Positions 27,214-31,116 of a stretch of DNA of 64,000 bases are shown here, one piece after another. A program made the translations under genes and the position numbers. Origin of the DNA: Chitinophagaceae bacterium UBA4857 (lineage in GTDB: Bacteria; Bacteroidota; Bacteroidia; Chitinophagales; Chitinophagaceae); contig DHEF01000053.1 of NCBI GenBank assembly GCA_002399735.1, positions 24,828 to 88,827 on the forward strand, written 5' to 3'. The notes beneath the pieces are model-generated. The model was not told the DNA's origin, ran no database searches, and worked only from the letters and a program-made list of their open reading frames with translations. How positions within the stretch are numbered: the first letter of the stretch is position 1; each line of letters opens with the position of its first letter.

Positions 27214-27495
27214 GTTTTACTTACTCCCAAAAACAAATTAAGTATTTCACCTGATTAAAATTGGTGTTGTTTTTATGCACTTTTTTACCAACATTCCTGT
27301 TTTTTCCATTTTTTACAGCAAACAGCCGTTTTAAATGGTAAATGGGTGATATGTGAATAACTCAGACGGGTGTAACAGAAACATATTATTAAGTGCGTAA
27401 AAACACTAAAAATATCAGCGTTTTTAACGTAAGTTTGATTATCGATTTTTTACCCCTCTAACCCAACAGGCATAAACCTGTATAAAACCAAACTA

Positions 27496-28155
27496 ATGGC
27501 TGCTGTTCAGGAAATAAAAGTTGCTATTGCCGATGACCACAAAATTTTTCGTGATGGCATTCGTATGTCTTTGAAAGACAGGGAGTACCTGCGAATTTTA
27601 TGGGAAGCTGAAGATGGCAAAGATTTAATGCATAAACTAAAATTGAAGGAACCGGATGTTTTACTAATGGACATACGAATGCCTGAAATTGATGGCATAA
27701 ACGCAATAGGTTTAATAAGAAAAGAGTATGAATCCATTAAAATCATTGTACTGACCATGTACGATGATCAGGAAATGATTACCAAGATGATGGAAATGGG
27801 CGCTAATGCCTACCTGACAAAAACCACCGACCCCGACGAAATTTACCAGGCCATTATTACTTGTATGAATGATGATTTTTACTTTAATGAGCTGGTAAAT
27901 AAAGCAGTACTACTTAAACTACAACATAAAAAAACGGTTCGCCAGTTTTATCCCAATCCCGTAAAATTCTCCGAAAAAGAACTAAAGATTTTAAAACTCA
28001 TAGCCGAGGATAAAACAACTGAAGAAATATCGAAGGTGGTTTTTTTAAGCCCGCGTACAATAGAAACCATACGACAAAACATGAAGCAAAAAGCAGGTGC
28101 TAAAACAATTGCCGGTTTGGTAATGTTTGCTATGCGTAACAAGTTGCTTGAATAA
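27496..28155 (+). CDS. Orphan NarL/LuxR-family response regulator
   Basis: IADDH, LLMDIRMP, GANAYLTK, C-terminal HTH (LSPRTIETIR); paralogue of 29832-30503. Confidence 0.92.
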   Translation: MAAVQEIKVAIADDHKIFRDGIRMSLKDREYLRILWEAEDGKDLMHKLKLKEPDVLLMDIRMPEIDGINAIGLIRKEYESIKIIVLTMYDDQEMITKMMEMGANAYLTKTTDPDEIYQAIITCMNDDFYFNELVNKAVLLKLQHKKTVRQFYPNPVKFSEKELKILKLIAEDKTTEEISKVVFLSPRTIETIRQNMKQKAGAKTIAGLVMFAMRNKLLE

Positions 28156-28210
28156 TACTTGTTGTTTAACTACCGGTGGCTTTGTTATTTGTTTACTTTA
28201 ATATACCTGC

Positions 28211-28954
28211 ATGGCAAATATTAACGATATTTATTTTGATGGACATTATAAAGATATATGGCGTGAAATAAATCCGCCGGAGATAACCAAAGTTGAAGTT
28301 GATTTTATGATTAGCCATTTTGGCTTAACCAAGGATAGCGCTGTGTTGGATATGATGTGTGGCTTTGGCCGCCATGCTTTGGCGTTAGGGCGGCAAGGAA
28401 TAACCGTTACTGCGGTTGATAACCTGAAAGCTTATACCGACGAAATAGCGGAAACTGCTACAAAAGAAAATCTGCCTGTAACTACGGTGCAGGATAATAT
28501 TTTTACCTATATACCTTCACAACAATATGACCTGGCTATTTGTATGGGAAATAGCTTAAACTTTTTTCCGGAGGAAGAACTACTGGTTATTTTAAAAACA
28601 ATAGTTGGTAGTTTAAAACAAGGTGGATCCTTACTGATACATAGTTATTCTTTAGCAGAAACTGTTATTAAGCATTTTATAGCCCGTACCTGGACAGATA
28701 TTGGTGAGTTGCGTATTTTAAGCAAAAGCCGATACTTATTTTTTCCTACACGTTTAGATACCGAAACCATGATGATAACAGCTGGTGGCGAAATTGAAGT
28801 GAAACAAGCGGTTGATTATATTTTTTCCTTAAGCGAAATGAATAAAATACTGGCATCGGTAGGGTTAAGCTTAAAGGATGTTTACACTATACCCGGCCGT
28901 AAAAAGTTTGCTTTGGGCGACCCTTATGCTTACATGATTGCTACTAAAGCGTAA
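28211..28954 (+). CDS. Class I SAM-dependent methyltransferase
   Basis: VLDMMCGFGRH motif I, VTAVD, YDLAICMGNS. Confidence 0.88.
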   Translation: MANINDIYFDGHYKDIWREINPPEITKVEVDFMISHFGLTKDSAVLDMMCGFGRHALALGRQGITVTAVDNLKAYTDEIAETATKENLPVTTVQDNIFTYIPSQQYDLAICMGNSLNFFPEEELLVILKTIVGSLKQGGSLLIHSYSLAETVIKHFIARTWTDIGELRILSKSRYLFFPTRLDTETMMITAGGEIEVKQAVDYIFSLSEMNKILASVGLSLKDVYTIPGRKKFALGDPYAYMIATKA

Positions 28955-29161
28955 TGAATATATAATAATATACAAAAACTGCTTTTTATTTTACCCGCTG
29001 ATGGTGCTGATTTGATGTGCAGATTTTCGCAAATCGAAATCTTTTTTTACAAAATTCAGGAGTGGTTTTATCTGCGTAATCTTCAGGACGCTATTTAGTT
29101 AGGATATACGTATTTATAATTAAGTTTTTGCAAAATGTTGATAACTGATATGCTGATGACT

Positions 29162-29276
29162 GGCTGCACTGCTTAGGCGTAAATGTTTTGGTGCAATGGC
29201 CGGGCAGCTTGGCTAAAACATTGCAGACGGGCAGTGGACTGAAGATGATAGTAGTACTGCTGCTGACAGCCCCAAA
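29162..29276 (+). repeat. GGCTG...AGCCCCAAA element (115 nt)
   Basis: Homologous to 13191-13315; its 3' part gatgatagtagtactgctgctgacagc resembles the arm of the main repeat at 45060-45085. Confidence 0.8.
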
Positions 29277-29300
29277 TATTGCTAACTGGTATATAAATAG

Positions 29301-29321
29301 AAAAAGTCCCCCGAAGAGGAC
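29301..29321 (-). terminator. Intrinsic terminator with a cUUCGg tetraloop, on the minus strand with no annotated upstream gene
   Basis: Minus strand reads GTCCTC-TTCG-GGGGAC-TTTTT. Confidence 0.75.
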
Positions 29322-29412
29322 CGTTTCATTTGTTACTGTTACGAAAAAAAGTTTTGACCATTTGGGGTCAACCTTTCAGAAGGCTTAACTGGTTCTTTAA
29401 AGGTATAATGAC

Positions 29413-29475
29413 TTAACGGATAATATTATAAAATAGAAAGTTGATGTAGACGGGTTCTTGTTTTGGTTTTGTCAT
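29413..29475 (-). CDS. Candidate 20-aa small protein MTKPKQEPVYINFLFYNIIR
   Basis: ATG to TAA ORF between a predicted promoter (29550-29581) and terminator (29301-29321); below the ORF-track length cut-off; no homology evidence. Confidence 0.35.
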   Translation of the reverse strand: MTKPKQEPVYINFLFYNIIR

Positions 29476-29549
29476 TGGATTTGGAAAGAACTTTTCTGGA
29501 CGGCTTTGGATATTGGATAACAAGTATCGTTTTCACCAACTTTCTGATA

Positions 29550-29581
29550 CAAAAATATATCCACATAGGCATGTGCACAAG
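29550..29581 (-). promoter_or_regulatory. Bacteroidota sigma70-type promoter on the minus strand
   Basis: CTTG-N20-TATTTTTG versus consensus TTTG-N19-21-TAnnTTTG. Confidence 0.5.
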
Positions 29582-29650
29582 AGCACTATTCCTCCATTTA
29601 ATTTTTATGGTTTTTACTAGGTGTATCGTATTTTTCAGGGGAAAATACTT

Positions 29651-29694
29651 ACTTATAGTATAAGTGTAAACTATTATACGTTGACTATTGTCAA
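29651..29694. promoter_or_regulatory. Two palindromes in the divergent promoter region, one FNR/CRP-like
   Basis: ACTTATA-G-TATAAGT at 29651-29665 and TTGAC-TATT-GTCAA at 29681-29694. Confidence 0.45.
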
Positions 29695-29831
29695 CCTGTA
29701 CTTTCCGCAAGGTATAAATCAAGTACTTCTACTATGGTTTATGTCGCGGGATTTTTCCACCTTGTGGTCGAATTTTACCGAATCCAATTTTTTTGAGTAA
29801 TTACATTTAAGTAAAACCAATTTTAGTCCCA

Positions 29832-30503
29832 ATGAGAAACGACGCAAACACTGCAATTAAAGTAGCTATTGCCGATGACCACACACTGTTTCGTACCGGT
29901 GTTAAAACATCTTTATCCAGCCGAAAGGATATACAGATGGTGGCAGAAGCGGAGAATGGTATGCAACTGCTTAATTTGTTAAAACATATACAGCCGGACG
30001 TTGTATTGTTAGACATTCAAATGCCCATTATGGATGGGTTAACTACACTTCCTGAAATTAAAAAGTTATATCCTGATGTTAAGGTAATTATGCTATCCAT
30101 GCATAATGACCACTCGGTTATATCTAAGATGATGGAAATAGGCGCCAACTCCTATTTAACCAAAGAATCGGGATCGGAAATGATTTACGAAGCTATTAAA
30201 CAAGTGTACGAGCAGGATTTTTATTTTAACGATCTTACCAACAAAGCACTGTTAAGTGGTTTACGTACCAAACGTGTGGTAGAAGCATCGGCACCTCCGG
30301 AAGTGAGCCTTACCGACAAAGAGGTAACCATTTTGCGTTTAATGTGCGACGAAAAAAGCACAAAAGAAATTGCTGATATTGTTGACCTTAGTCCACGTAC
30401 GGTAGAAGCCATCCGTGATAAACTAAAAACAAAAACAGGTACTAAATCAATGGCAGGTTTAGTAATGTATGCTGTTAAAGCCGGTTTAATAGAGCAGGCT
30501 TAA
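29832..30503 (+). CDS. Orphan NarL/LuxR-family response regulator
   Basis: IADDH, VLLDIQMP, GANSYLTK, LSPRTVEAIR. Confidence 0.92.
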   Translation: MRNDANTAIKVAIADDHTLFRTGVKTSLSSRKDIQMVAEAENGMQLLNLLKHIQPDVVLLDIQMPIMDGLTTLPEIKKLYPDVKVIMLSMHNDHSVISKMMEIGANSYLTKESGSEMIYEAIKQVYEQDFYFNDLTNKALLSGLRTKRVVEASAPPEVSLTDKEVTILRLMCDEKSTKEIADIVDLSPRTVEAIRDKLKTKTGTKSMAGLVMYAVKAGLIEQA

Positions 30504-30528
30504 TTAGTTACTGTTAATAAAATATTGT

Positions 30529-30553
30529 ACAACCACCTTTTAAGGGTGGTTGT
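30529..30553. terminator. Intrinsic terminator between convergent genes
   Basis: acaaccacc-N7-ggtggttgt followed by tttgtttt. Confidence 0.75.
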
Positions 30554-30609
30554 TTTGTTTTGGGGTGTAGTTTTAGTAGTAAAACCTAAATAACACCTTT
30601 AATGAATAA

Positions 30610-31116
30610 TCAGGTAAGGTTGTGAACAAGAAATACAAAGAAATTCCAGATAGCATGAATAATACTAACCATGTAAAATTTATTAATTTTTTTTCCTTGC
30701 CATAAATGATAAGCGGTTATTAAAATACACCCAACCATTACCCCGTAAAAAATATAGTCAATACTTTGGTAATGCATTGCGCCAAAAAGTAAGGCGGAAA
30801 TTGGTAAAATGAAATAGAAAGGAACTCTTTTTTTTGATAAAAAATTATATGGTATATGTTGCAGAAAGTATGTTTCAATAAGCGGCGCAACAATACAAGC
30901 TAGTATAAACTGTTCCCACAGGTTCATATTTGAAATATCATTTTTTAGCGTTGCTTTATAATTAAACAGTATTTCTAATAGGGAAAGAAGTTGGCCAAAA
31001 GCCAAACTGCCTAATAAAGAGATAAAGAAAAATAATGGTATAAATTTGAATGGATTTGTATATAAATCTTTAGGTAACTTCAATTTTAGCATCATAGTTT
31101 GGGTTAGCACATTCAA
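30610..31116 (-). CDS. CPBP/Abi (CAAX protease-like) intramembrane metalloprotease family
   Basis: IVAPLIETYFLQ, SALLFGAMHY, IIHAIWN; multiple TM segments; very AT-rich. Exact start uncertain. Confidence 0.75.
   Translation of the reverse strand: MNVLTQTMMLKLKLPKDLYTNPFKFIPLFFFISLLGSLAFGQLLSLLEILFNYKATLKNDISNMNLWEQFILACIVAPLIETYFLQHIPYNFLSKKRVPFYFILPISALLFGAMHYQSIDYIFYGVMVGCILITAYHLWQGKKINKFYMVSIIHAIWNFFVFLVHNLT

What the first reader, a model, noticed from the sequence alone, without database searches (positions are those of the whole stretch)
29301..29581. Unannotated minus-strand transcription unit (about 245 nt) with a 20-codon ORF, divergent from an orphan response regulator
Seen: in an 877-bp gap with no annotated gene, the minus strand has a near-consensus Bacteroidota promoter (CTTG-N20-TATTTTTG, 29550-29581). 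It is followed by an ORF MTKPKQEPVYINFLFYNIIR (29475-29413), two small hairpins (agcctt-ctga-aaggtt and ttgacc-ccaaat-ggtcaa) and a textbook terminator GTCCTC-TTCG-GGGGAC-TTTTT (29301-29321). A strong terminator facing away from every annotated gene needs a transcript to explain it. Inference: an sRNA, small protein or dual-function RNA co-regulated with the NarL-type regulator at 29832.
Basis: partly seen in the sequence, partly recalled or inferred. Interest (0 to 1): 0.62.

Follow-up and report, generated by a model that had tools for sequence, protein, structure and literature searches.

The report
Regulator-linked small RNA gene of Chitinophagaceae
The "empty" gap holds a real, unannotated gene for a roughly 250-nucleotide non-coding RNA that sits back-to-back with the same response-regulator gene in over a hundred Chitinophagaceae genomes; it is in no RNA database, and the 20-codon reading frame inside it is not conserved.

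Summary
The promoter match alone is no better than chance; conservation is what makes the unit real. Promoter, RNA body and terminator recur in 134 of 401 Chitinophagaceae genomes (52 of 151 genera), with 1-5 copies each. No genome from another family of the order matched, and Rfam 15 has no match.

A 12-bp stem joins the predicted 5' end to a segment about 100 nt downstream. It is paired in 98% of cells, and 8 of its 12 pairs show compensatory changes. Its many G-U pairs, with A-C mispairs rare or absent, fix the RNA on the window's minus strand. The terminator keeps its place while its stem sequence changes.

The 20-codon ORF shifts frame in the closest congeners and has no ATG further out, so the RNA is non-coding.

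Almost every copy lies divergently, 235-290 nt from an ortholog of the NarL/LuxR-type regulator. A second copy accompanies the paralogous regulator in other genera. A TAC-N10-GTA site sits at about -77.5 in 106 of 115 promoters.

Best reading: a regulator-driven trans-acting RNA. Targets are unknown.

The parts
29615..29630 (.). Candidate response-regulator operator TACGATACACCTAGTA (TAC-N10-GTA, NarL 7-2-7-like spacing), centred about -77.5 from the predicted RNA start
   Evidence: TAC-N10-GTA is present in 106 of 115 distinct copies within 3 nt of this position, 96 of them at exactly the same offset. It occurs 86 times in 56 intergenic regions against 5.7 +/- 2.5 in shuffles. Binding is inferred, not shown.
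29581..29594 (.). Imperfect palindrome GAGGA-ATAG-TGCTC overlapping the -33 element (family consensus GrGCA-N4-TGCTC)
   Evidence: Conserved at 70-90% per position in the logo of 116 copies. Its function is inferred to be a second operator.
29550..29581 (-). Bacteroidota sigma-A-type promoter: -33 CTTG (29581-29578), 20-nt spacer holding the palindrome CACAT-GCCT-ATGTG (29575-29562), -7 box TATTTTTG (29557-29550)
   Evidence: Sequence. TTG and TAnnTTTG are conserved at 80-99% in 116 copies at a fixed distance from the stem, and the variation falls on the nn positions. The pattern alone is not above chance.
29534..29545 (-). 5' strand of closing stem P1 (AGAAAGUUGGUG); predicted RNA start at A29545, 5 nt after the -7 box
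   Evidence: RNAalifold predicts 12 pairs. On 95 distinct sequences, 98% of cells are paired, 8 of 12 pairs change on both sides, and 0 of 500 shuffles reach the observed values. The start site is inferred from promoter geometry.
29473..29520 (-). Conserved, probably unpaired core UUAUCCAAUAUCCAAAGCCGUCCAGAAAAGUUCUUUCCAAAUCCAAUGA, with four UCCAA motifs
   Evidence: AUCCAAUrUCC and CCGUCCAGAAA are invariant or nearly so across genera. UCCAA occurs 3.0 times per RNA against 0.5 in shuffles, and four times in the window.
29435..29446 (-). 3' strand of P1 (CAUCAACUUUCU), followed by a U-rich tract (29434-29425)
   Evidence: In most family members a U-run follows directly, so early termination here is possible.
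29413..29475 (-). 20-codon ORF MTKPKQEPVYINFLFYNIIR, judged not to be a gene
   Evidence: Translation. Congeners have a 1-nt indel that gives an unrelated 26-residue peptide, and three other relatives have no ATG.
29344..29371 (-). Internal terminator-like hairpin UUGACC-CCAAAU-GGUCAA plus AACUUUUUUU
   Evidence: Shared only with close congeners.
29332..29343 (-). Conserved 3'-domain motif CGUAACAGUAAC (family consensus UUUUCAUAACAGUAAC) just before the terminator
   Evidence: AACAGTAAC lies 40-190 nt after P1 in 62 of 116 copies, each followed by a terminator hairpin. Also seen in alignment A1.
29297..29322 (-). Final intrinsic terminator GGUCCUC-UUCG-GGGGACU plus UUUUU; predicted 3' end of a roughly 249-nt RNA
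   Evidence: The position is conserved while the stem sequence differs between lineages, and the U-run is always on the minus strand.
29698..29768 (.). Highly conserved block between the RNA promoter and the regulator gene. It includes TACTTCTACTATGGTT (29724-29739), which reads TAC-N10-GTA in most relatives
   Evidence: The intergenic alignment of 56 genomes shows 80-99% conservation. Site list. Its role, autoregulatory operator or regulator-gene promoter or leader, is inferred.
29832..30503 (+). NarL/LuxR-family response regulator (REC + GerE), the constant divergent partner of the RNA
   Evidence: Pfam. NCBIfam matches to MctR, UvrY/GacA and NarL are all below their cut-offs. Orthologs are 65-98% identical across the family.

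Best explanation
Window 29545 to about 29297, minus strand, is a gene for a non-coding regulatory RNA of about 250 nt. It belongs to an undescribed RNA family confined to Chitinophagaceae; the window's genome is a Terrimonas.

Anatomy. Transcription starts from a Bacteroidota sigma-A-type promoter (TTG-N20-TAnnTTTG). The first 12 nt pair with a segment about 100 nt downstream (stem P1). This closes a 5' domain whose interior is near-invariant in sequence and mostly unpaired, with repeated UCCAA(U) and GUCC motifs and the block CCGUCCAGAAA. A 3' domain carrying (U)5-CAUAACAGUAAC ends in an intrinsic terminator. A U-tract right after P1 may also yield a shorter form of about 115-130 nt.

Control. 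The RNA gene forms a fixed divergent module with an orphan NarL/LuxR-type response regulator. I infer that the phosphorylated regulator binds the TAC-N10-GTA site at about -77.5, and a related site before its own gene. It would then switch on the RNA as the post-transcriptional arm of its regulon.

Action. The RNA would act in trans through its exposed conserved motifs, most likely by base-pairing with mRNAs.

Status of each step. Shown by comparison: the gene's boundaries, its strand, stem P1, its non-coding nature and its linkage to the regulator. Inferred: transcription itself, control by the regulator, and the mode of action.
For: Conservation: the region is 86-87% identical in two congeners and about 67% identical in blocks in other genera, always upstream of the orthologous regulator.

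Distribution: covariance model R1 finds the RNA in 134 of 401 family genomes and 52 of 151 genera. In the order-wide sample all 15 matching genomes were Chitinophagaceae. An exact-pattern scan gave at least 119 loci, nearly all titled Chitinophagaceae.

Structure and strand: P1 is paired in 98% of cells, 8 of 12 pairs change on both sides, and 0 of 500 shuffles reach the observed values. Slid controls are paired in only 23-52% of cells. There are about 49 G-U or U-G cells, and A-C mispairs are rare or absent, which fixes the strand.

Ends: the promoter logo from 116 copies sits at a fixed distance from P1. The terminator is conserved in place with different stems, and the U-run is always on this strand.

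Non-coding: the ORF is frameshifted or absent in relatives, and indels that are not multiples of 3 lie inside the conserved core.

Link to the regulator: the RNA lies divergently 235-290 nt from RR2 orthologs. A second copy lies before RR1 orthologs in other genera. 133 of 134 genomes with the RNA also have the regulator (Fisher p about 1e-67, not corrected for phylogeny). TAC-N10-GTA is at a fixed offset in 106 of 115 copies.

No Rfam match.
Against: The single-sequence fold is only slightly more stable than shuffles (z = -1.37). Internal helices show almost no covariation because the core hardly varies, so the interior structure is unknown. The promoter pattern alone is at chance frequency. 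The TAC-N10-GTA heptamers do not match the E. coli NarL consensus beyond TAC/GTA, and two other conserved palindromes over the promoter could belong to other regulators. No target was found: the only long complementary or identical matches in the genome are short and near chance. 41 genomes have the regulator but no detectable RNA. One diverged copy in this genome has no regulator nearby.
Confidence: 0.72

Rival explanations
1. The same RNA gene, but it works as a protein sponge or as part of a ribonucleoprotein rather than by base-pairing. Its repeated UCCAA(U) and GUCC motifs would titrate an RNA-binding protein. This would be a Gac/Rsm-like cascade driven by a UvrY/GacA-like regulator, in a phylum that uses neither Hfq nor CsrA as a rule.
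For: UCCAA occurs 3.0 times and GUCC 3.9 times per RNA, against 0.5 and 0.8 in shuffles. Sequence is conserved along almost the whole 250-300 nt, not in a single seed. The regulator's second-best NCBIfam match is UvrY/SirA/GacA, though below cut-off. No convincing complementary target was found.
Against: The motifs are not the GGA of CsrA/RsmA sponges. No candidate binding protein is linked to the locus. The motifs are not displayed in covarying hairpin loops. Base-pairing RNAs are the only class shown so far in Bacteroidota (background knowledge).
Confidence: 0.2
2. No RNA is made. The conserved 29430-29780 stretch is only an extended DNA control region of the regulator gene (operators and promoters), and the hairpin at 29301-29321 merely terminates the convergent methyltransferase gene.
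For: The stretch lies upstream of the regulator gene and is full of palindromes. No expression data are available. The terminator faces a convergent gene and could act in both directions.
Against: The stem covaries, and its G-U versus A-C asymmetry makes sense only for RNA of the minus strand. The terminator's U-run is on the minus strand in every lineage. The promoter is at a fixed distance from the stem in 116 copies. The conserved 3' domain extends away from the regulator gene. One copy exists with no regulator nearby.
Confidence: 0.05
3. The unit encodes the 20-residue peptide (small protein or dual-function RNA).
For: An ATG-initiated 20-codon frame lies inside the unit.
Against: Congeners at 86-87% DNA identity carry a 1-nt indel that gives an unrelated peptide, and other relatives lack the ATG. 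No other frame is kept across the family, because indels that are not multiples of 3 lie in the core.
Confidence: 0.02
4. The element is a miniature mobile repeat whose 12-bp terminal inverted repeats happen to look like an RNA stem.
For: It has inverted termini and 1-5 copies per genome.
Against: Copies are syntenic across more than 50 genera and diverge in step with their host genes. They sit at a fixed distance from one gene family. They carry their own promoter and terminator. The stem tolerates G-U but shows few or no A-C mispairs. A true dispersed repeat lies next door and behaves quite differently, with at least 70 copies and none at the orthologous site of congeners.
Confidence: 0.01

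Closest known systems
agr P2/P3 of Staphylococcus aureus: AgrA activating RNAIII, divergent from the regulator operon
   Same: A regulatory RNA gene lies back-to-back with the gene of a two-component response regulator. Conserved repeats lie in the shared intergenic region. The RNA is presumed to be the main effector of the regulator.
   Different: AgrA is a LytTR-type regulator encoded with its kinase; here the regulator is an orphan NarL/LuxR type. RNAIII encodes delta-haemolysin; here the ORF is not conserved. There is no sequence or structural similarity.
GacA/UvrY (NarL-family) activating RsmY/RsmZ/CsrB
   Same: A NarL/FixJ-family regulator whose chief targets are small RNA genes, with a palindromic upstream site and repeated short motifs in the RNA. 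The regulator's second-best NCBIfam match is the UvrY/GacA model, below cut-off.
   Different: The RNA motifs are UCCAA and GUCC, not GGA. The upstream site is TAC-N10-GTA, not TGTAAG-N6-CTTACA. The Gac/Csr RNA genes are not adjacent to the regulator gene. No CsrA partner was tested.
Divergent regulator/sRNA pairs of Enterobacteria (OxyR-OxyS, GcvA-GcvB, SgrR-SgrS)
   Same: The sRNA gene is transcribed divergently from the gene of its own transcription factor, and the two are inherited as a pair.
   Different: Those regulators are LysR-type or other one-component factors. Those RNAs are Hfq-dependent and 100-230 nt long. None is homologous to this RNA.
NarL/NarP 7-2-7 sites (E. coli)
   Same: A 16-bp inverted arrangement that starts with TAC and ends with GTA, upstream of a promoter controlled by a NarL-family regulator.
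   Different: The inner heptamer positions (TACGAnn and TACnGnn) do not fit TACYYMT. Binding is untested.
Known Bacteroidota sRNAs (GibS, MasB, RteR, DonS/FopS of Bacteroides) and Rfam Bacteroidota motifs
   Same: It has the same promoter type (TAnnTTTG) and is a stand-alone intergenic RNA ending in an intrinsic terminator.
   Different: No Rfam 15 family matches this locus or four other family members, even at E <= 10 or E <= 1. This family is restricted to Chitinophagaceae.

Membership tests
Any Rfam 15 RNA family | Covariance-model match at or near the gathering score | tested here: not met
   The best hits are eukaryotic miRNA or lncRNA models at E = 2.6-6.5. There were no hits at E <= 1 in five loci holding family members.
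Stand-alone bacterial sRNA gene | Own promoter at a conserved distance from the RNA body | tested here: met
   TTG-N19-21-TAnnTTTG is conserved in 116 copies and ends 4-5 nt before stem P1.
Stand-alone bacterial sRNA gene | Intrinsic terminator on the same strand, conserved by structure rather than by sequence | tested here: met
   Stems differ between lineages at the same position, and the U-run is on the minus strand.
Stand-alone bacterial sRNA gene | Detected transcript with defined ends | not testable with these tools
Structured RNA | Base pairs supported by compensatory changes | tested here: met
   For P1, 8 of 12 pairs change on both sides, 98% of cells are paired, and 0 of 500 shuffles reach the observed values. 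This holds for P1 and the terminator only; interior helices are invariant or unsupported.
Small protein or dual-function RNA | Reading frame and peptide conserved among relatives | tested here: not met
   The frame is shifted in G002 and G003, and G014, G025 and G004 have no ATG.
CsrB/RsmZ-type protein sponge | Many GGA motifs, mostly in hairpin loops | tested here: not met
   The recurrent words are UCCAA, GUCC and UGAAA, not GGA.
CsrB/RsmZ-type protein sponge | GacA box TGTAAG-N6-CTTACA upstream | tested here: not met
   The upstream consensus is TTTACGA-N6-CnGTAAA.
NarL 7-2-7 operator | Inverted heptamers TACYYMT separated by 2 bp | tested here: inconclusive
   The TAC-N10-GTA geometry is met in 106 of 115 copies, but the inner heptamer positions do not match. 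No binding assay was possible.
agr-like RR/RNA module | LytTR-type regulator with a cognate kinase in the divergent operon | tested here: not met
   The regulator is REC + GerE, and none of the eight neighbouring genes tested is a kinase.
MITE or dispersed repeat | Many near-identical copies at non-orthologous sites | tested here: not met
   This genome has two copies, scoring 141 and 38 bits. Copies elsewhere are syntenic with the regulator gene.

The most novel reading that the evidence does not exclude
The RNA is not an ordinary base-pairing sRNA. It would be a large, sequence-invariant RNA of 250-300 nt that works as a protein-binding partner of the two-component module. One option is a sponge for a still unknown Bacteroidota RNA-binding protein, which would be the first Gac/Rsm-like cascade in a phylum lacking CsrA/Hfq-type circuits. 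Another is direct feedback on the orphan regulator or its unknown kinase. This would explain why regulator and RNA are paired wherever either occurs and appear to have been duplicated together.
Probability: 0.15. Interest if true: 0.8.

Novelty: new member of a known kind. Interest (0 to 1): 0.55.

Why it matters
Little is known about post-transcriptional control in Bacteroidota outside Bacteroides, and nothing in the soil and freshwater family Chitinophagaceae. This work defines a family-wide RNA with a covariance model, boundaries, strand and promoter. The RNA is locked to one of the most conserved response regulators of the family, which is 85-98% identical across many genera. That gives a concrete, testable circuit: an unknown signal, an orphan NarL-type regulator, an RNA, and its targets. 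It also gives an annotation fix for hundreds of genomes. The kind of circuit, a regulator with an adjacent sRNA, is well known, so the value lies in a new, widespread and well-delimited family rather than in a new principle.

Tried and rejected
1. Rfam at permissive thresholds, on the window and on four other family members: nothing.
3. A 98-codon TTG ORF covering the promoter (29426-29722): the translation is low-complexity, and the region carries indels in relatives. Rejected.
4. Guide RNA of the dCas12f-sigmaE system (PMC13472631): those RNAs lie beside dCas12f genes. None is here, and the constant neighbour is a response regulator. Rejected.
5. RNAduplex between the RNA and the regulator's leader: it gave meaningless full-length duplexes. 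Abandoned.
6. Genome-wide search for long complementarity to the RNA: only short matches near chance.
7. Genome-wide scan for TTAC-N10-GTAA to define a regulon: 316 hits, too degenerate to use.
8. A remnant of the second RNA copy upstream of the first regulator gene (27214-27495): none found.
9. Interior helices P2 and the GAAA/UUUC hairpin from RNAalifold: almost no covariation, so they are not claimed.

Full report
**Observation.**
The gap 28955-29831 (877 bp) lies between a SAM-methyltransferase gene (28211-28954, +) and a REC+GerE response-regulator gene (29832-30503, +).
- CTTG (29581-29578), a 20-nt spacer and TATTTTTG (29557-29550);
- the ORF 29475-29413, which translates to MTKPKQEPVYINFLFYNIIR;
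- the two small hairpins;
- a terminator GGTCCTC-TTCG-GGGGACT plus T5 at 29322-29300, and a second terminator-like hairpin at 29371-29354 followed by T7.

The promoter pattern alone is not significant. It occurs 5 times in the window against 7.4 +/- 2.9 in shuffles. Terminator-like sites in 28000-31000 number 7 against 2.1 +/- 1.4 expected.

**Conservation.**
A DNA search of relatives found 29293-29824 at 86-87% identity in two congeners. It found about 67% identity in blocks in two further congeners and two other genera. In every case the match lies just upstream of the orthologous regulator, which is 87-98% identical at the protein level. Record titles identify the genus as Terrimonas and the family as Chitinophagaceae.

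The 7-sequence alignment shows four things:
- the -7 box TAnnTTTG is kept, and variation falls on the nn positions;
- the -33 TTG is kept;
- the segments AGAAAGTTGAT and ATCAACTTTCT are complementary and invariant;
- a hairpin with a U-run on the minus strand sits at the same position, but its stem sequence differs between lineages.

**Family.**
A covariance model built from the 5' domain (R1) finds the RNA in 134 of 401 family genomes, 52 of 151 genera, with 1-5 copies per genome. In a 301-genome sample of the order, all 15 genomes that matched belong to this family. Nearly all are titled Chitinophagaceae or one of its genera. Rfam 15 has no match for the window locus or for four other members. 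The window's genome has one further, diverged copy on another contig, scoring 37.7 bits.

**Structure and strand.**
The 12-bp stem P1 (29545-29534 with 29446-29435) was tested on 95 distinct sequences:
- 98% of cells are paired;
- 8 of the 12 pairs change on both sides;
- 0 of 500 shuffles reach the observed values;
- slid controls are paired in only 23-52% of cells.

About 49 cells are G-U or U-G, and A-C mispairs are rare or absent. This is expected only if the RNA is read from the window's minus strand. Interior helices proposed by RNAalifold barely covary because the interior is almost invariant. I therefore claim only P1 and the terminator.

The interior carries AUCCAAUrUCC, CCGUCCAGAAA and UUUCCAA. 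UCCAA recurs 3.0 times per RNA against 0.5 in shuffles, and four times in the window. GUCC recurs 3.9 times against 0.8.

**Ends.**
The logo of 116 distinct copies reads AAAT-GGGCAGTTATGCTCTTGT-nACAT-N5-ATGTGGATATAnTTTTGT-nTCAGAAAGTTG. The promoter therefore ends 4-5 nt before P1, and the predicted start is A29545.

In most copies a U-run directly follows P1. In 62 of 116 copies, a conserved UUUUCAUAACAGUAAC lies 40-190 nt further on and is followed by a terminator hairpin. The window has CGTAACAGTAAC at 29343-29332 and the terminator at 29322-29300. The full RNA is thus about 249 nt here and 220-380 nt across the family. Shorter forms ending after P1 or after the 29371-29354 hairpin are possible. 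The single-sequence fold closes P1, with z = -1.37.

**Coding.**
The 20-codon ORF is not conserved. The two closest congeners carry a 1-nt indel after the first codons, which gives MNKTKTGTRQHQLSYFLNIRFKSLYL. Three other relatives have no ATG at this position. Indels that are not multiples of 3 lie in the conserved core. The RNA is non-coding.

**Link to the regulator.**
- In 127 located copies, almost every one lies divergently 235-290 nt upstream of an ortholog of the 29832 regulator, here called RR2.
- In many genera a second, paralogous copy lies 180-470 nt upstream of the ortholog of the other regulator in the window (27496-28155, here RR1, 47% identical to RR2). The arrangement is RNA-b, RR1, methyltransferase, RNA-a, RR2.
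- The window's genus lacks RNA-b.
- 133 of 134 genomes with the RNA have an RR2-like gene at E <= 1e-60. The exception is an 80%-complete assembly. 41 genomes have the regulator only, and 226 have neither. This is strong, but it is not independent of phylogeny.
- A TAC-N10-GTA site with consensus TTTACGA-N6-CnGTAAA lies at a fixed offset, centred about -77.5, in 106 of 115 copies. In the window it is 29615-29630.
- The site occurs 86 times in 56 intergenic regions against 5.7 +/- 2.5 expected. A second occurrence lies in a roughly 70-nt, 80-99% conserved block before the regulator gene (window 29698-29768).
- Two further palindromes overlap the -33 element and the spacer.
- The regulator scores below cut-off for MctR, UvrY/GacA and NarL, so it is a generic NarL/FixJ-family member. 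None of the eight neighbouring genes tested is a kinase.

**Interpretation.**
The comparative data show a stand-alone non-coding RNA gene on the minus strand. It is physically and phyletically locked to an orphan NarL/LuxR-type regulator. I infer that the regulator activates the RNA promoter from the -77.5 site, and probably regulates itself. I also infer that the RNA acts in trans through its exposed conserved motifs. Base-pairing is my first choice. Protein titration is a serious second, given the repeated motifs and the conservation along the whole length.

The rival readings are contradicted by the strand asymmetry, the synteny and the frameshifts. Those rivals are a DNA-only control region, a peptide gene and a mobile repeat.

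This is probably the same or a sister module. I re-derived the site here independently but could not match the sequences.

**Limits.**
No targets were found. The interior structure is unresolved.

**Verdict.**
The sRNA part of the interpretation and the link to the regulator are supported; the peptide part is rejected. This is a new, widespread RNA family of a familiar kind.

Noticed in passing
window about 29155-29283 (minus strand): One copy of a roughly 130-nt dispersed repeat lies just beyond the RNA's terminator. This genome gives 72 blastn hits, the window's own copy included, and two congeners have many more. The consensus is TTTGGGGCTGTCAGCAGCAGTAATACTAATCAGCTGCAGTCCnCCGCCCGTCTGCAAT-(GC hairpin)-CATTTACGCCTAAGCGGnGCAGCCC. 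Compensatory changes are visible by eye (CACTG/CAGTG, CGCCG/CGGCG, CCCCG/CGGGG) inside a GGGCTG/CAGCCC closing stem. The repeat is absent from the orthologous site in the congeners, so it is an insertion. It is a structured, mobile, REP- or MITE-like element with no Rfam match.
   Followed up: partly
window 29698-29768: A roughly 70-nt block between the RNA promoter and the regulator's start codon is 80-99% conserved across genera (GGTACTTTCCGCAAA-N4-AAATCAAGTACTTCTACTATGGTATATGTTGCAGGAATTTTTCAACTTGCA). No clear TTG/TAnnTTTG promoter for the regulator gene could be placed. It may be an operator cluster or a structured leader.
   Followed up: partly
window 27214-27495: In many other Chitinophagaceae genera a paralogous copy of the RNA sits upstream of the ortholog of the first regulator gene (27496-28155). 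In the window's genus the gap is only 282 bp, directly after the tgt gene, and holds no copy.
   Followed up: yes
L051 1501-1653 (own genome, contig C55:150650-150802, minus strand): A second, diverged copy of the RNA (37.7 bits) has its own TAnnTTTG promoter, closing stem and U-run. It lies between a PALP+CBS enzyme gene and a periplasmic-binding-protein gene, with no response regulator within 1.5 kb.
   Followed up: partly
own genome C26 about 22815 (-) and C36 about 103663 (+): The 3'-domain word TTTTTTTCATAACAGTAACAAAT recurs at two other loci without the rest of the RNA. TAACAGTAAC occurs 33 times in the genome against about 9 expected. The meaning is unknown.
   Followed up: no
L074 and L085 (public records CAZPPM010000007.1 and QFQQ01000036.1): Two metagenome bins titled Citrobacter carry this Chitinophagaceae RNA, and one also carries the regulator at 90% identity. 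The bins are probably misnamed or contaminated.
   Followed up: no
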